In this document: positions 59,158-63,650 of the stretch, piece by piece | How the letters are laid out: each line of letters begins with the position of its first letter | Numbering within the stretch: position 1 is the first letter of the stretch | Program-made: the position numbers and the translations under genes | IMG/VR virus record: IMGVR_UViG_3300015177_000008 | Location: 1 to 64,000 of that record | DNA from: a virus | Lineage: Duplodnaviria; Heunggongvirae; Uroviricota; Caudoviricetes | Strand: one strand, 5' to 3' | DNA: 64,000 nucleotides | Notes under the pieces: model-generated | What the model was told of the DNA's origin: nothing | The model's database searches: none | Seen by the model: only the letters and a program-made list of their open reading frames with translations

Positions 59158-59706
59158 TTACACAATTTCAGAGGGTAATTTAAAAAATCCGTACTTATTA
59201 CGTGCCTTAAAGAAGCATTGCATCATTAAGTTTGTGTCATATAAGGCACTATGTGCTTTGGCATGATCGTATATAAAGCCAAGAGAGAAGGCCAACTCTT
59301 CAAGGCGGGGACGTTTACCGTCTTCTGTGGCCCACAGGGAAAATAGAGTGTCAATCAATGGGATGTCTGGAAGCGAAAAACCGTAACTTTTCAGCTCATG
59401 CCTAATAAACGGAATATCGAACGCTTCGCCGTTGTGGGCTATCCAAATATCGGAAGAAGAGAGATACGAAGCGACAGATGAAGCGTGATCGGCTAGTAAC
59501 GGCTCGGCGGCTAAATCTTCAAGACTGATGCCGTGTACCGCTTGCGCTTTCGGATCGATACTGCGACGCGGGTTGAACCGCATTACAAAACTATCAACCA
59601 TTGTCTGTGTCTCAATTTCGTACTTCACCATTGCGATTTCAATGATTTTATGGCCTGAGAGGAAATCAAGACCTGTTGATTCGATGTCCACCCCTGTAGC
59701 AATCAC
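59158..59706 (-). CDS. DnaQ-like 3'-5' exonuclease (DEDDh family)
   Basis: Exo I-III motifs (VDIESTGL, WIAHNGEAFD, HSALYD). Confidence 0.7.
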   Translation of the reverse strand: MIATGVDIESTGLDFLSGHKIIEIAMVKYEIETQTMVDSFVMRFNPRRSIDPKAQAVHGISLEDLAAEPLLADHASSVASYLSSSDIWIAHNGEAFDIPFIRHELKSYGFSLPDIPLIDTLFSLWATEDGKRPRLEELAFSLGFIYDHAKAHSALYDTNLMMQCFFKARNKYGFFKLPSEIV

Positions 59707-60497
59707 TTTTTATCTCCTTTTACTGGTCGTTTGGACGGTGTGAAGATGGCAGCTTCAACATCCCACCCCCTCAAAATTCGCTGCGAGATAATGGTCGCAG
59801 TCAAGCCAACCTCTCTAGCCCATTCGGTAATTCGCTGAGTTCTGCCGCGACACTCGATCAGACGCTTACTATCTCGGTTGGCATACGTGTCGACGCTGGC
59901 GTTAAGCGCGCGATCTAATGGCCACCCTTTCTTGATTCGATAGTGAAGAGTTGATGTCTGAATCCCGGCTCTTTTAGCCCATTGTGAGAGAGTCAGCTTT
60001 TCCCCCTTATGCTCCAAAATTAAGTTTGAACGCGTGTTATTGGCCTGTTCTTCAAAAGTCGCCCATCTGCAATTTTCAGGTTCGTAGTCACCATTCACAT
60101 CTTTGCGATCAAGAGACATCCCCTCTGGTCGCTCTCCCATGTCAGCATAAAAGTTTTCAAATATTTGCCACCGCTCGCAGACTTTGATACCTCGGCCGCC
60201 ATACCACTTATAGGCGTGATGGGTTGGTTTTTCACATCGTTCCCGCATACCCAGCCATATACGATAAATTGGCGTTTTACTCATACCATGAGGCTTTACG
60301 CTACGGCGATGTGCGTTGTAGACACAGCCACACGATATTGTCGCCCCGTGATTTAGCTTCCCGTAACTAACCAGACAGGTGTTGCCGCAATCGCAGATGC
60401 AATCCCAAAGTCGCCCTTGTTTGTTTGAAATACCGGAATATTTAAGTGCAACCAACTTTCCAAAACGTTTACCTGTTATATCTACCGGTTGTCCCAT
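59703..60497 (-). CDS. zinc-ribbon / HNH_3-like DNA-binding protein
   Basis: Cys cluster CICDCGNTC..CGC and NGDYEPENCRWAT..EQANN resembling the HNH_3/AP2-associated motif. Confidence 0.4.
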   Translation of the reverse strand: MGQPVDITGKRFGKLVALKYSGISNKQGRLWDCICDCGNTCLVSYGKLNHGATISCGCVYNAHRRSVKPHGMSKTPIYRIWLGMRERCEKPTHHAYKWYGGRGIKVCERWQIFENFYADMGERPEGMSLDRKDVNGDYEPENCRWATFEEQANNTRSNLILEHKGEKLTLSQWAKRAGIQTSTLHYRIKKGWPLDRALNASVDTYANRDSKRLIECRGRTQRITEWAREVGLTATIISQRILRGWDVEAAIFTPSKRPVKGDKK

Positions 60498-60506
60498 TAC
60501 TACTCC

Positions 60507-60926
60507 TTACAACTTCTTAGCGCCCTTGAGTAGTGCACTACGTACAAATTGAGCCGCTTTTTTCAAAGTTTCTTCACTGGTTTCACAGACAATCGGATCT
60601 TTCCACTTACCTGACGCAGTATTGAGAATATTGATTTGGTTGCTATCCAGACAAACAGAGATATAAAGCACCGTGCCACCAGCCAGCATCAAATGCATAG
60701 GAAACAGAGGCTTTTTACTGTCTTCACTGAACTGAGACATGGCGATGTTAATGGCTTCACCCACTTGTGTACCAACAAGCCCCTGCGCAGTTTCGAATAT
60801 GGCACGAATAGCCAGACGAGCCTCTCGATCGCTCATAAGCGACCGGGAATGTTCGTCCGCTACACGAATCAAAGCCTCTGTTGTTTTCCGATCCAGTTCA
60901 TCTTCAAGCAACATTTCACTAAACAT
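60507..60926 (-). CDS. hypothetical protein
   Basis: 139-aa ORF. Confidence 0.35.
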   Translation of the reverse strand: MFSEMLLEDELDRKTTEALIRVADEHSRSLMSDREARLAIRAIFETAQGLVGTQVGEAINIAMSQFSEDSKKPLFPMHLMLAGGTVLYISVCLDSNQINILNTASGKWKDPIVCETSEETLKKAAQFVRSALLKGAKKL

Positions 60927-61632: not shown

Positions 61633-62108
61633 TACGACCTTCTGTATACGATCTGCGAAAAGCCAGGCTCTTCCTCGCTGGCTCGTTGGGTATAAGCTGT
61701 TTCAACAGGCACAAAGCCTAAATTACGCATCATGCTTGCCGGGAAGAATGCATCGGCGTTTGGCACATCAACGCCGATGTGGGAGAGCCAAATCTCTTCA
61801 ACATGCGGCATGAATAGCGAGTAAATTTGTTCCCCGCCAATCACCCACACAGGCTCTGGTAATCGCAACACATCATCCACACCAGCAGGGTAGAATCCAT
61901 TTGGTACAAAGCCATGAGAGCGCGTCAAAACGAGGTTATGACGCTCTGGAAGAGGGCGTTTGAGACTTTCCATCGTTTTACGCCCCATAACGACAGTGGC
62001 GTTTTTGGTGAGTCTCTTAAATAGCTTCAGATCGGTAGAACAACGCCAGGGCAGTTCGTTCGCTATGCCGATCTCATAGTTACGGCCAACAGCAGCTATC
62101 ATCTTCAT
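61632..62108 (-). CDS. dihydrofolate reductase
   Basis: IAAVGRNYEIGIANELPW, VVMGRKT, VIGG motifs. Confidence 0.85.
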   Translation of the reverse strand: MKMIAAVGRNYEIGIANELPWRCSTDLKLFKRLTKNATVVMGRKTMESLKRPLPERHNLVLTRSHGFVPNGFYPAGVDDVLRLPEPVWVIGGEQIYSLFMPHVEEIWLSHIGVDVPNADAFFPASMMRNLGFVPVETAYTQRASEEEPGFSQIVYRRS

Positions 62109-62566
62109 TTGCTCACCTCATAGATGACCGGTCTATGATGAGAGTCAGCTAAGGCGGCACGGAGTCGAGGATCGTGCACCAGCGCAGCGATAAGCAGATC
62201 GCCTTTATGCTCCGCTAATGTGCGCTTAATATGCTTCTCATAACTGGTGCCATTCGGTACGAGATGAAGCCAGTCATAATCAACGCCAAAATCTTTCAGC
62301 CATCGTTTAGTTGGCGCTTCAAGAGTTTCAGAGCGGCTACTGATAAGCACCACTTCAGCCCCTGAGCGAGCAAAACCACGCAACATACGGCTGGTGGGGA
62401 AAATGAGTTCATCACCGGCAATGAGCTGGCCTGCATCCGCGTCAGATACTGATTTACGATGGCTGGCATTTGCCAGCACACCTTCAATTTCGCATAAGAC
62501 ATACATACCTCTTGCCATATCACACCGCCACTGGAACCTTGATCCACGGTAGAGGGTCATAGCCAA
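62105..62566 (-). CDS. hypothetical protein
   Basis: 153-aa ORF with TTG start in the ORF track; coupled to DHFR. Confidence 0.35.
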   Translation of the reverse strand: MAMTLYRGSRFQWRCDMARGMYVLCEIEGVLANASHRKSVSDADAGQLIAGDELIFPTSRMLRGFARSGAEVVLISSRSETLEAPTKRWLKDFGVDYDWLHLVPNGTSYEKHIKRTLAEHKGDLLIAALVHDPRLRAALADSHHRPVIYEVSK

Positions 62567-63650
62567 GAATTAAAACCTCGTCCCATTTGAAATCATCCAA
62601 CTCTGACCATTCATGAGGGAAAATAACGACCGGATCTGAATGCTCTGGAGCCTGTCGTTTCATTAGCTCACACACACCTTCCATGTGGTTGTTGTACAAA
62701 TGCACGTCAAAGCCAAAATGCACAAATGCACCGGCCATGTGACCCGTAATCTTCGCGAGAAAATGAGTGAGAATGCCATAGCCAGCAATATTGAATGGCA
62801 TACCAACAAAAGTGTCTACGCTACGCTGTACGAGGCAGGAGTTGAGGATGCGTTTGGGGATTCCAAGTTCATCCAGTTCAGCTTCAGTAACACTGCCGTC
62901 CATCTCCAGATCGTATAGCATCTTGGTGTAGATAGACTCGTAACCGAGGCGACTGTGTTGAAGACCAATGTCAGTTGCCATCGTTAAACGGGTTTCAAAA
63001 TCCAGCTCACGACTCCACAAAGAGAAGACAAAGTGGCAAGGTGGCAGTTTCATATCCTCAAGCTCGCCTACGTTCCATGCGTTAAGCATGATGCGACGAT
63101 CGGTAGGGTTCGTGCGCAGTGTATCGACAATACGCTGTAGCTGATCGATTTCACGGGACAGCACTACGCGATCTTCACTGATACCCAGGTATCCCTCGAC
63201 TTTGTACCCGCGTTCACGGAAAGTAGCGATCTTGCTCAGATATTCACTATGGCTCACGATGCGGGTATCTTCCCATCGACGCCACTGCTTACCGGAAACC
63301 GGCCCCAAATCGCCATTCTCATCGGCCCATGCATCCCAAATCTTAACGCCGTTATCCTTGAGAAATTGGATGTTGCCCGTGCCTTTCAGATACCACTCAA
63401 GTTCGACAAGCAGTGGCTTAAGATTTACCGCCTTTCCAGAAATAAGCGGCACAGTCCCACCAGTAAGCATGTAGTAAGAGGGAACGTAGCAGGTGCTTAA
63501 AGTACCAGTGCCTGTGCGATCATCAGCCTGCACGCCGCTTTTAAGCACCGTCTCAATAACTTTTGCATACGATGCGTTTGTTACCTGACCGTTCGTATGC
63601 TCACGATTCAAAAGGAGTGACACAAAAACCTCACAAAGATAAGTAATCAC
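62520..63650 (-). CDS. thymidylate synthase with an internal insertion
   Basis: DRTGTGT, KQWR, LPPCH catalytic Cys, MPFNIAGY motifs; ~376 aa versus ~264 aa for E. coli ThyA; start codon uncertain (non-ATG). Confidence 0.8.
   Translation of the reverse strand: MITYLCEVFVSLLLNREHTNGQVTNASYAKVIETVLKSGVQADDRTGTGTLSTCYVPSYYMLTGGTVPLISGKAVNLKPLLVELEWYLKGTGNIQFLKDNGVKIWDAWADENGDLGPVSGKQWRRWEDTRIVSHSEYLSKIATFRERGYKVEGYLGISEDRVVLSREIDQLQRIVDTLRTNPTDRRIMLNAWNVGELEDMKLPPCHFVFSLWSRELDFETRLTMATDIGLQHSRLGYESIYTKMLYDLEMDGSVTEAELDELGIPKRILNSCLVQRSVDTFVGMPFNIAGYGILTHFLAKITGHMAGAFVHFGFDVHLYNNHMEGVCELMKRQAPEHSDPVVIFPHEWSELDDFKWDEVLILGYDPLPWIKVPVAV

What the first reader, a model, noticed from the sequence alone, without database searches (positions are those of the whole stretch)
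59158..63650. Nucleotide-metabolism module (P-loop kinase, DHFR, insertion-containing thymidylate synthase) with a DnaQ-like exonuclease
Thymidylate synthase plus DHFR is the classic T-even td/frd pairing but is unusual in a lambdoid-style region. The ThyA homologue is about 110 aa longer than E. coli ThyA, with an insertion between the KQWR and LPPCH motifs, and a P-loop kinase is adjacent. The presence of DHFR argues for genuine thymidylate synthesis rather than a hydroxymethylase, but a modified-pyrimidine pathway cannot be excluded from sequence alone.
Basis: partly seen in the sequence, partly recalled or inferred. Interest (0 to 1): 0.45.

Follow-up and report, generated by a model that had tools for sequence, protein, structure and literature searches.

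The report
Phage-plasmid dTMP-supply operon, known family
This is the ordinary, already described nucleotide-supply gene block of an SSU5-type phage-plasmid of E. coli (true thymidylate synthase plus the DfrA51 reductase), not a modified-base pathway; the only oddity is that this copy's synthase carries serine in place of a universally conserved catalytic tyrosine.

Summary
The genes are real and sit at the stated coordinates, all on the minus strand. The window is an SSU5-like phage-plasmid: 98.9% identical to Escherichia phage Cyrano, and 3 differences in 14 kb from E. coli plasmid p108_MLI108-3. The block is conserved in that family, next to NrdAB and a MazG-like gene.

The ThyA homologue is a canonical dUMP-methylating thymidylate synthase. 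It passes the TIGR03284 equivalog cutoff, keeps the catalytic, dUMP- and folate-binding residues checked, and keeps the C-terminal tail. It is far closer to E. coli ThyA (E 7e-63) than to T4 gp42 (6e-4) or SPO1 gp29 (0.23).

It has two insertions, not one: about 34 aa (strand-rich) and about 51 aa (three helices). Both are under purifying selection and recur in jumbo-phage and metagenomic synthases.

The DHFR is DfrA51, published in 2025 as conferring trimethoprim resistance. The P-loop protein has a dNK/TMPK/NadR-kinase fold; its substrate is unknown.

New point: this allele has Ser at E. coli Tyr94. All 120 homologues have Tyr, yet the Ser allele is on at least 24 independent contigs. It is probably a hypomorph.

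The parts
62520..63623 (-). Long-form thymidylate synthase (ThyA), 367 aa. The longest ORF extends to 63650. It has two lineage-specific insertions, at residues 120-153 and 206-256. The allele carries Ser110 at the position of E. coli Tyr94 (codon TCC at 63294-63296).
   Evidence: - Family scores: PF00303 2.1e-76. TIGR03284 214 bits against a cutoff of 108.
- The E. coli catalytic and binding residues checked are kept, except Y94.
- BLASTP gives E 7e-63 to E. coli ThyA.
- AlphaFold2 model pLDDT 95.3.
- The Ser allele was checked against relatives.
63707..63725 (-). Terminator-like hairpin followed by a T-run, between the upstream MazG-like gene and ThyA
   Evidence: Consensus scan: 8-bp stem with 6 GC pairs, followed by TTTTTTATCT. 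This is a pattern match only.
62105..62518 (-). 137-aa HAD/PNKP-phosphatase-like protein with a degenerate active site, placed between ThyA and DHFR. Motif I reads C-E-I-E-G-V instead of DxDGT. The gene starts 1 nt after the ThyA stop and overlaps the DHFR start by 4 nt.
   Evidence: - Pfam HAD_PNKP scores 22.8 bits, below the 27.6 cutoff.
- It aligns to the phosphatase domain of Pnkp1 (4xrp), E 1.9e-5.
- Glu is invariant at the nucleophile position in 19 homologues, and motif IV is not conserved.
- It matches PHROG 5387, function unknown.
61632..62108 (-). Dihydrofolate reductase, DfrA51 type, 158 aa
   Evidence: - PF00186 1.6e-34.
- NCBIfam NF047324 trim_DfrA51 scores 338 bits against a cutoff of 322.
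- RefSeq labels it dfrA51.
- It is 90.5% identical to the SSU5 protein and keeps residues A6, I13, D26 and S48.
- The SSU5 allele was characterised in PMC12217456.
60988..61632 (-). P-loop nucleoside/nucleotide-kinase-fold protein, 214 aa, substrate unknown. Its start overlaps the DHFR stop by 1 nt.
   Evidence: - AAA_28 4.5e-9.
- Invariant or nearly invariant in the family: Walker A GAQGSGKTT, the motif DRTPxDVxAY, and R139 and R142.
- AlphaFold2 model pLDDT 87.7.
- Only 51 homologues were found, most on contigs of roughly 100-113 kb typical of SSU5-like plasmids.
60507..60926 (-). 139-aa conserved protein of unknown function
   Evidence: It has no Pfam or NCBIfam hit. It matches PHROG 5373, function unknown, at 1.3e-87. 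It is present in SSU5 and Cyrano at the same position.
59703..60497 (-). 264-aa HNH-endonuclease-like ORF, a mobile insertion that is not part of the ancestral module
   Evidence: - PHROG 374 'HNH endonuclease' 2.1e-79.
- It is absent from Cyrano and SSU5.
- It is present in only some E. coli relatives and in Klebsiella phage GArcari-2022 at 94.6% nucleotide identity.
59158..59706 (-). DEDDh (DnaQ-like) 3'-5' exonuclease, 182 aa, divergent allele
   Evidence: - RNase_T 1.3e-22. PHROG 192 'DNA polymerase exonuclease subunit' 6.4e-51.
- The motifs DIESTG, HNGEAFD and HSALYD are present.
- It is only 77.8% identical in protein and 79.6% in DNA to the Cyrano allele, while the flanks are 97-98% identical.

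Best explanation
The interval is the deoxynucleotide-supply operon of an SSU5-family phage-plasmid, a temperate siphovirus kept as a low-copy plasmid in E. coli.

Inferred pathway. The upstream NrdAB genes make dNDPs. The upstream MazG-like pyrophosphohydrolase is proposed to yield dUMP; this step is context inference, not tested. The long-form ThyA then methylates dUMP to dTMP using methylene-THF. The DfrA51-type DHFR regenerates THF from the DHF by-product. The P-loop kinase most likely phosphorylates a deoxynucleoside or deoxynucleotide, with dTMP the obvious candidate. This would let the element boost dTTP supply during lytic replication, independently of host FolA and ThyA. The DEDDh exonuclease belongs to the neighbouring replication genes rather than to nucleotide synthesis.

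Shown here: gene identities, conservation of the block across the family, the synthase-type active-site architecture, and DfrA51 membership.

Inferred: the flux scheme, the kinase substrate, and co-transcription. Co-transcription is suggested by 1-4 nt gaps or overlaps from ThyA to the kinase and by a terminator-like hairpin upstream of ThyA.

The two ThyA insertions are constrained surface modules of a viral 'long TS' subfamily. Their role is unknown.

This particular allele carries Tyr to Ser at the tyrosine that assists C5-proton abstraction. The enzyme encoded in this window is therefore probably a strong hypomorph (my estimate about 0.7). The host's own thyA would make such a loss tolerable.
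For: Element identity:
- 98.9% nucleotide identity to phage Cyrano and 77% to SSU5, with the same gene order.
- 3 differences in 14 kb from plasmid NZ_CP117002.1.
- The block occurs in 233 of 5426 complete E. coli genomes, 241 of 243 places on plasmids.
- Cyrano makes siphovirus virions and has about 5.5 copies per cell (PMC9928086).

Synthase identity:
- PF00303 and TIGR03284 both score above their cutoffs.
- R21, E58, W80, W83, R126, R127, C146, H147, R166, S167, D169, N177, H207, Y209 and the C-terminal PVAV are all kept.
- N177 and H147 mark dUMP-type synthases (PMC8670742).
- The C-terminal tail is characteristic of thymidylate synthase and absent from T4 dCMP hydroxymethylase (PMC6400193).
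- BLASTP: E 7e-63 to E. coli ThyA, 6e-4 to T4 gp42 and 0.23 to SPO1 gp29.
- Foldseek TM 0.94 on E. coli TS.

DHFR: the DfrA51 model scores above its cutoff. The SSU5 allele gave trimethoprim MICs of 256-512 mg/L and a Kd of 6.4 uM (PMC12217456).

Kinase fold.

Inserts:
- Confident model, with insert 1 strand-rich and insert 2 three helices.
- Against SSU5, dN is 0.039 for insert 1 and 0.154 for insert 2, against 0.055 for the core, with dS saturated overall.
- Both inserts are alignable in jumbo-phage and metagenomic synthases.

Tyr to Ser:
- Codon TCC against TAC in Cyrano, SSU5 and NZ_CP117002.1.
- Tyr is present in 120 of 120 homologues.
- It is the only amino-acid difference from Cyrano ThyA.
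- The exact protein is on at least 24 contigs from independent samples.
- None of 5426 complete genomes has the Ser allele, against 198 with Tyr.
- Tyr94 is described as the essential base for C5-H removal, and the equivalent Y96F abolishes T4 dCH activity (PMC6400193; PMC8670742).
Against: - No activity, expression or DNA-composition data exist for this element.
- The HAD-like gene in the middle of the operon has no assigned role and lacks the canonical Asp nucleophile.
- The effect of Tyr to Ser is inferred from mutants of other enzymes (Y94F in E. coli TS from my own knowledge of Hong, Maley and Kohen 2007, which I could not open; Y96F in T4 dCH). A Ser with a bridging water could retain more activity than expected.
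- The persistence of the allele in many isolates shows only that it is tolerated. It does not show that it is inactive.
Confidence: 0.85

Rival explanations
1. The ThyA homologue is a pyrimidine hydroxymethylase (for dUMP or dCMP). The adjacent P-loop kinase acts on the hydroxymethyl group, as a 5-hmdU DNA kinase does. The module would then make a modified base for the phage DNA.
For: - The protein has an unusual length and two insertions.
- A kinase of unknown substrate lies in the same operon.
- SPO1's dUMP hydroxymethylase is also long, at 383 aa.
- This allele has an altered active-site residue.
Against: - N177 and H147, W80 and W83, and the full C-terminal tail needed to seal the site for hydride transfer are all present.
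- Similarity to the hydroxymethylases is negligible: T4 gp42 E 6e-4 and SPO1 gp29 E 0.23, against 7e-63 to E. coli ThyA. SPO1's extra length is a C-terminal extension, not these inserts.
- A DHFR is needed only if DHF is produced, which means methylation, and one is translationally coupled in the operon.
- No hypermodification enzymes are annotated in the 70 kb of the plasmid inspected.
- The tyrosine lost in this allele is also required by hydroxymethylases, since Y96F is dead in T4 dCH.
Confidence: 0.03
2. The block is mainly host-beneficial cargo. It would be a trimethoprim-resistance determinant (dfrA51, with its folate-cycle partner thyA) maintained by antibiotic selection on the plasmid form, rather than a phage replication function.
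For: - The DHFR passes the DfrA51 resistance model, and RefSeq labels it as such.
- The cloned SSU5 allele raises the trimethoprim MIC 64- to 128-fold (PMC12217456).
- The element is widespread on plasmids of clinical Enterobacteriaceae.
Against: - The genes are core to the whole SSU5 family, in a fixed position among NrdAB, MazG-like and replication genes. The 20-kb stretch inspected around them has no transposase or integron, and RefSeq marks two frameshifted genes in it. This is the pattern of a phage dNTP module.
- Resistance was shown with expression vectors, not from the native element.
Confidence: 0.12
3. The Ser-for-Tyr codon is a sequencing or assembly error, and the gene is wild type.
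For: - The nearest complete record, NZ_CP117002.1, differs at only 3 of 14,002 aligned positions and has TAC (Tyr) there.
- None of 5426 complete RefSeq E. coli genomes has the Ser codon.
- The same plasmid carries frameshifted genes.
Against: - The exact 367-aa Ser-containing protein is in public databases under several accessions (UniParc UPI0005A8A0ED).
- It is encoded on at least 24 contigs from independent ENA, SRA/Logan and NCBI assemblies.
- Four fetched loci are 100% identical to the window over 4,481 nt, including the TCC codon.
Confidence: 0.04

Closest known systems
Nucleotide-metabolism block of Salmonella phage SSU5 (SSU5_078-086), Escherichia phage Cyrano (pLF82) and related phage-plasmids
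   Same: The gene order is the same: NrdA, NrdB, MazG-like, ThyA (367 aa), 137-aa HAD-like, DHFR, P-loop, 139-aa ORF, exonuclease. Protein identity is 97-100% to Cyrano and 71-90% to SSU5 for all except the exonuclease.
   Different: This copy has an extra HNH-like ORF and a divergent exonuclease allele (77.8% to Cyrano). Its ThyA carries Tyr110Ser.
DfrA51 (SSU5 DHFR, Wang et al. 2025, PMC12217456)
   Same: It scores above the curated DfrA51 model cutoff. It is 90.5% identical to the SSU5 protein and keeps the residues shown to matter there: A6, I13, D26 and S48.
   Different: It is a 9.5% diverged allele, identical to the Cyrano one. Its own trimethoprim phenotype was not measured.
E. coli ThyA and the classical thymidylate synthases (including L. 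casei TS, with its ~50-aa small-domain insert)
   Same: The core fold (TM 0.94), catalytic Cys, Arg quartet, N177, folate-binding Trp residues and C-terminal tail are all shared. Insert 1 sits at the same site as the L. casei small-domain insertion; this comparison is from my own knowledge and was not tested here.
   Different: It is 103 aa longer. It has a second, 51-aa three-helix insert in the hairpin after the catalytic-Cys strand. No solved structure covers this insert: TM normalised to the query is 0.65-0.71. Ser replaces Tyr94 in this allele.
Long thymidylate synthases of jumbo phages (Seoulvirus such as SPFM4, Erwinia phages Machina, Wellington and Asesino, phiKZ-like 201phi2-1)
   Same: They are 36-39% identical over 95-98% of the length. 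They carry inserts at both sites with shared motifs (W-DTR...GY...IDQ and SRE...R...LD...IP-R-L). In the BFVD search, 201phi2-1 gives TM 0.83 normalised to the query and an unnamed viral protein gives 0.86.
   Different: Insert lengths and sequences differ. Those phages are lytic jumbo myoviruses, not phage-plasmids.
T4 td/frd and the T4 dNTP-synthesising enzyme set
   Same: A phage-encoded synthase and DHFR occur with ribonucleotide reductase and a dNMP-level kinase. The logic is the same: self-sufficient dTTP supply.
   Different: There is no dCMP hydroxymethylase, no glucosyltransferase and no td intron. The genes are contiguous and translationally coupled here. Complex formation is unknown.
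Pyrimidine hydroxymethylases T4 gp42 and SPO1 gp29
   Same: They belong to the same superfamily fold, with the catalytic Cys and the Tyr94-equivalent conserved.
   Different: They lack the IWDxWADENGDLGPVYG folate and Trp motif, H147 and the C-terminal tail. The window protein has all of these. Sequence similarity is marginal.

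Membership tests
Thymidylate synthase ThyA (PF00303 / TIGR03284) | Profile score above the curated family and equivalog cutoffs | tested here: met
   PF00303 scores 257 bits against a cutoff of 24.3. TIGR03284 scores 214.3 bits against 108.35.
Thymidylate synthase ThyA (PF00303 / TIGR03284) | Catalytic Cys146, the phosphate-binding residues R21, R126', R127' and R166, plus S167, D169, H207 and Y209 | tested here: met
   All are present in the alignment with E. coli ThyA and 120 homologues.
Thymidylate synthase ThyA (PF00303 / TIGR03284) | dUMP specificity residue Asn177 (with His147) | tested here: met
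   N and H are present. Their significance is given in PMC8670742.
Thymidylate synthase ThyA (PF00303 / TIGR03284) | Folate-site Trp80 and Trp83, and the C-terminal tail that seals the site for hydride transfer | tested here: met
   The sequences IWDAWADENGDLGP and the C-terminal ...GYDPLPWIKVPVAV are present. The tail's role is described in PMC6400193.
Thymidylate synthase ThyA (PF00303 / TIGR03284) | Tyr94, which assists C5-proton abstraction | tested here: not met
   This allele has Ser (TCC). All 120 homologues, Cyrano, SSU5 and NZ_CP117002.1 have Tyr. By descent and architecture the gene is a thymidylate synthase, but this copy may be catalytically impaired.
Thymidylate synthase ThyA (PF00303 / TIGR03284) | Conversion of dUMP and CH2-THF to dTMP and DHF | not testable with these tools
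   This needs an enzyme assay or thyA complementation.
Pyrimidine hydroxymethylase (T4 gp42 / SPO1 gp29 type) | No synthase-type C-terminal tail, and closer sequence kinship to known hydroxymethylases than to synthases. For dCMP enzymes, Asp at position 177. | tested here: not met
   The tail is present and position 177 is Asn. BLASTP gives E 6e-4 (gp42) and 0.23 (gp29), against 7e-63 to E. coli ThyA.
Thymidine-hypermodification clusters (dUMP hydroxymethylase + 5-hmdU DNA kinase + downstream transferases) | Co-occurrence with the downstream hypermodification enzymes, and a DNA-acting kinase | tested here: inconclusive
   No such gene names occur in the RefSeq annotation of the 70 kb inspected. 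The kinase fold is nearer small-molecule kinases than polynucleotide kinase. I made no direct comparison with a reference 5-hmdU DNA kinase sequence.
DfrA51 trimethoprim-resistant DHFR | Score above the curated NCBIfam exception-model cutoff | tested here: met
   NF047324 scores 338.2 bits against a cutoff of 322.
DfrA51 trimethoprim-resistant DHFR | Residues shown by mutagenesis to support resistance (A6, I13, D26, S48) | tested here: met
   All four are present. The mutagenesis is reported in PMC12217456.
DfrA51 trimethoprim-resistant DHFR | Raised trimethoprim MIC | not testable with these tools
   This was shown only for the SSU5 allele on expression vectors.
HAD-superfamily phosphatase (PNKP phosphatase-domain type) | Motif I DxDx(T/V) with the Asp nucleophile, motif IV acidic pair, and a Pfam score above cutoff | tested here: not met
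   Motif I is E-I-E-G-V. The Glu is invariant in 19 homologues and motif IV is not conserved. PF25109 scores 22.8 bits, below the 27.6 cutoff. The protein is HAD-like in sequence ancestry only.
P-loop nucleoside/nucleotide kinase (dNK / TMPK / NadR-RNK fold) | Walker A motif, a kinase core with a LID region, and structural similarity to family members | tested here: met
   - GAQGSGKTT is present, and R139 and R142 are conserved.
- AAA_28 scores above its cutoff.
P-loop nucleoside/nucleotide kinase (dNK / TMPK / NadR-RNK fold) | Defined phosphate acceptor (dTMP, dNMP, dN or nicotinamide riboside) | not testable with these tools
   No sequence-level match to a characterised enzyme was found. PDB phmmer E-values are all 0.006 or worse and cover the P-loop only.
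DEDDh (DnaQ-like) 3'-5' exonuclease | Exo I, II and III motifs with the DEDD acidic residues and His | tested here: met
   DIESTG, HNGEAFD and HSALYD are present. RNase_T scores 81.5 bits.
HNH homing endonuclease | Family profile match, presence/absence polymorphism between otherwise collinear genomes, and the catalytic His-Asn-His motif | tested here: inconclusive
   PHROG 374 matches at 2.1e-79, and the polymorphism is clear. No Pfam HNH model matches. The expected first His is not evident in the sequence SLDRKDVNGDY...N.

The most novel reading that the evidence does not exclude
The two constrained insertions define an uncharacterised 'long TS' subfamily of viral thymidylate synthases, found in SSU5-type phage-plasmids, jumbo phages and many metagenomic contigs. 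In this reading the inserts form a docking surface. In SSU5-type elements that surface would recruit the translationally coupled, catalytically degenerate HAD-like protein and the DHFR into a non-covalent TS-DHFR channelling complex. A weaker variant of the reading concerns the naturally circulating Tyr110Ser allele. It would be a selected attenuation of the plasmid-borne synthase, lowering DHF load in lysogens, rather than drift.
Probability: 0.12. Interest if true: 0.5.

Novelty: already known. Interest (0 to 1): 0.22.

Why it matters
As a finding, it mainly removes a false lead. A phage-plasmid that is common in E. coli, Salmonella and Klebsiella carries a standard dTMP-synthesis operon, and there is no sign of a modified-base pathway.

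Practical relevance already exists in the literature. The DHFR is DfrA51, a trimethoprim-resistance determinant spread by these elements.

Three smaller points may interest specialists:
- A natural, multi-isolate allele has Ser in place of a tyrosine conserved in every homologue examined. This would be a ready-made test of how dispensable that residue, or the whole gene, is in the plasmid state.
- A large viral synthase subfamily carries two selected insertions that no solved structure covers.
- A conserved HAD-like protein without the Asp nucleophile is wedged between the synthase and the DHFR.

Tried and rejected
- Hydroxymethylase reading. I fetched T4 gp42 and SPO1 gp29 and aligned them. 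Similarity is marginal and the hallmark features are absent, so I rejected it.
- Sequencing-error reading of Tyr to Ser. An exact-sequence look-up and contig retrieval show independent occurrences, so I rejected it. The allele is nevertheless absent from all complete RefSeq E. coli genomes.
- Known domain in the inserts. A Pfam scan of the two insert peptides at E up to 10 gave nothing meaningful.
- Solved structure covering the inserts. Foldseek against the PDB found only synthase cores.
- Regulatory RNA, such as a THF riboswitch. Rfam at gathering thresholds found nothing in 55000-64000.
- Defence-system membership. PADLOC gave only generic P-loop and DEDDh hits.
- Sequence-level identification of the kinase. 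PDB phmmer matched only the P-loop, and the homologue search stayed within a narrow family. Only fold-level assignment was possible.
- Promoter scan. It found fewer sigma-70-like sites than in shuffles, so it is uninformative.
- Papers I could not open: Hong, Maley and Kohen 2007 on Y94 and a 2026 preprint on phage-plasmid heteroresistance.
- An early suspicion that the MazG-like gene is truncated was wrong. The ORF simply runs off the window.
- The representative-protein search was not used, because it carries no annotation that would have helped.

Full report
**What is there.**
All genes in 59158-63650 are on the minus strand. In transcription order they are:
- ThyA homologue, 62520-63623. 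The longest ORF reaches 63650. The GTG at 63623 has a GAGG ribosome-binding site and matches the 367-aa length of relatives and of RefSeq.
- A 137-aa HAD/PNKP-phosphatase-like gene, 62105-62518.
- DHFR, 61632-62108.
- A P-loop protein, 60988-61632.
- A 139-aa ORF, 60507-60926.
- A 264-aa HNH-endonuclease-like ORF, 59703-60497.
- A DEDDh exonuclease, 59158-59706.

Pfam, PHROG and NCBIfam support these calls. From ThyA to the P-loop gene the junctions are a 1-nt gap, a 4-nt overlap and a 1-nt overlap. A terminator-like hairpin (63725-63707) separates ThyA from the upstream MazG-like gene. Rfam finds no RNA family in the region.

**What element this is.**
The interval is 98.9% identical to Escherichia phage Cyrano and about 77% identical to Salmonella phage SSU5, with the same gene order. 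Window positions 49999-64000 differ at only three positions from E. coli MLI108K3 plasmid p108_MLI108-3, NZ_CP117002.1.

The block occurs in 233 of 5426 complete E. coli genomes, 241 of 243 places on plasmids. It also occurs in hundreds of Klebsiella, Enterobacter, Salmonella and Citrobacter plasmids.

Upstream of ThyA lie a MazG-like pyrophosphohydrolase and NrdB and NrdA. The rest of the window holds siphovirus head and tail genes and ParB-family partition genes. Cyrano produces siphovirus virions and is kept at about 5.5 copies per cell (PMC9928086). The module is therefore a conserved, previously annotated feature of a known family.

**The ThyA homologue is a thymidylate synthase, not a hydroxymethylase.**
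- It passes PF00303 and the equivalog model TIGR03284.
- In an alignment with E. coli ThyA and 120 homologues it keeps R21, E58, W80, W83, R126, R127, C146, H147, R166, S167, D169, N177, H207, Y209 and the C-terminal ...KVPVAV.
- N177 and H147 are the positions that separate dUMP-type synthases from cytosine-modifying relatives (PMC8670742).
- The C-terminal tail is characteristic of the synthase and missing in T4 dCMP hydroxymethylase (PMC6400193).
- I fetched T4 gp42 and SPO1 gp29 and compared them directly. BLASTP gives E 7e-63 to E. coli ThyA, 6e-4 to gp42 and 0.23 to gp29. SPO1 gp29's extra length is a C-terminal extension unrelated to the inserts here.

**The insertions.**
Relative to E. 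coli ThyA there is a ~15-aa N-terminal extension and two insertions, at residues 120-153 and 206-256.

The AlphaFold2 model is confident (pLDDT 95.3). Insert 1 is strand-rich with two short helices, and insert 2 is three helices. Foldseek against the PDB superposes the core (TM 0.94 on E. coli TS). No solved structure covers the inserts: TM normalised to the query is 0.65-0.71. Neither insert matches a Pfam domain.

The inserts are not junk. Against SSU5, dN is 0.039 for insert 1 and 0.154 for insert 2, against 0.055 for the core, while synonymous sites are saturated overall. Within the SSU5-like clade they are less conserved than the core (42% and 35% mean pairwise identity, against 60-69%), but they share motifs.

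The same two sites carry inserts in many metagenomic synthases of 290-378 aa. They also carry inserts in jumbo phages, namely Seoulvirus SPFM4 and Erwinia phages Machina, Wellington and Asesino, at 36-39% identity over 95-98% of the length. Predicted viral structures reach TM 0.83-0.86 on the query. In SPFM4 a MazG-like gene lies nearby. This is therefore a widespread viral 'long TS' form whose inserts have no assigned function.

**The unexpected point: Tyr to Ser.**
The window reads GPVSGKQWR (codon TCC, 63294-63296). Cyrano, SSU5 and NZ_CP117002.1 read GPVYGKQWR, and all 120 homologues have Tyr. This is E. coli Tyr94, described as the essential base for removing the C5 proton. The equivalent Y96F mutant of T4 dCH makes no product (PMC6400193; PMC8670742). 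From my own knowledge, which I could not verify because the paper could not be opened, Y94F in E. coli TS lowers kcat by two to three orders of magnitude.

The change is the only amino-acid difference from Cyrano ThyA. It is not an artefact. The exact protein is in public databases and is encoded on at least 24 contigs from independent ENA, SRA and NCBI assemblies. Four fetched loci are 100% identical to the window over 4,481 nt. It is nevertheless rare. A 55-nt query centred on the codon found no Ser allele in any of 5426 complete E. coli genomes, against 198 genomes with the Tyr allele.

The most likely reading is a recent, clonally spread hypomorphic or null allele, tolerated because the host has its own thyA. 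I cannot exclude residual or altered activity.

**The partners.**
- *DHFR.* It scores above the curated DfrA51 cutoff (338 against 322 bits) and is labelled dfrA51 in RefSeq. It is 90.5% identical to the SSU5 protein and keeps A6, I13, D26 and S48. The SSU5 allele confers trimethoprim MICs of 256-512 mg/L from vectors and binds the drug with Kd 6.4 uM (PMC12217456).
- *HAD-like protein.* It aligns to the phosphatase domain of Pnkp1. It has Glu where the Asp nucleophile should be, invariant in 19 homologues, and it lacks a conserved motif IV. It also falls below the Pfam cutoff. It should not be called a phosphatase.
- *Exonuclease.* It has intact DEDDh motifs.

**Mosaicism.**
The HNH-like ORF is absent from Cyrano and SSU5. 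The adjoining exonuclease gene is only 79.6% (DNA) and 77.8% (protein) identical to Cyrano's, although the flanks are 97-98% identical. The patch is 94.6% identical to Klebsiella phage GArcari-2022. This looks like import of a mobile endonuclease gene together with neighbouring sequence.

**Verdict.**
It is a known dNTP-supply operon of a known phage-plasmid family, with a canonical-type thymidylate synthase and the published DfrA51. The modified-base idea is not supported.

The residual interest is modest. It rests on the natural Tyr110Ser allele, the constrained but uncharacterised inserts of long viral synthases, and the degenerate HAD-like gene between the synthase and the DHFR.

Noticed in passing
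window 63294-63296 (minus-strand codon TCC): The ThyA allele has Ser at the position of E. coli Tyr94. Tyr is present in all 120 homologues and in the nearest complete record. The Ser allele is real, on at least 24 independent contigs, but it is absent from 5426 complete E. coli genomes.
   Followed up: yes
window 59158-60563: Mosaic patch. A 264-aa HNH-endonuclease-like ORF is absent from Cyrano and SSU5. The adjacent exonuclease allele is only about 79% identical to Cyrano's, although the flanks are 97-98% identical. The patch is 94.6% identical to Klebsiella phage GArcari-2022. The canonical first His of the HNH motif is not evident.
   Followed up: partly
window 62105-62518: A conserved 137-aa HAD/PNKP-phosphatase-like protein lies between ThyA and DHFR. 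Its motif I is C-E-I-E/D-G-V, with Glu invariant where the Asp nucleophile should be, and motif IV is not conserved. It may be a pseudo-enzyme or scaffold.
   Followed up: partly
window 57477-58006: The Dam-type N6-adenine methyltransferase is split into two ORFs. RefSeq marks it 'frameshifted' in the near-identical plasmid. It is an intact 197-aa gene in Cyrano.
   Followed up: partly
window about 40990-49060 (L011 40994-49056): Chromosome-like cargo sits on the phage-plasmid: metG (methionine-tRNA ligase), apbC and a 4.2-kb inverse-autotransporter (intimin-like) gene. The local G+C content is around 0.46-0.51.
   Followed up: no
window 52669 and 55649: These are the only other differences from NZ_CP117002.1 in 14 kb. 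One is a 1-nt indel just downstream of the frameshifted DUF4942 pseudogene. The other is a SNP inside the BRCT-domain gene.
   Followed up: no
window 63707-63725: A strong terminator-like hairpin (8-bp stem plus T-run) lies between the MazG-like gene and ThyA. It suggests ThyA-HAD-DHFR-kinase is a separate or attenuated transcription unit.
   Followed up: no
window 55905-56552: An RNase HI gene with an N-terminal extension (215-aa ORF; the RNase_H domain covers residues 58-196) lies a few kb downstream of the module. It belongs to the same replication and repair gene neighbourhood.
   Followed up: no
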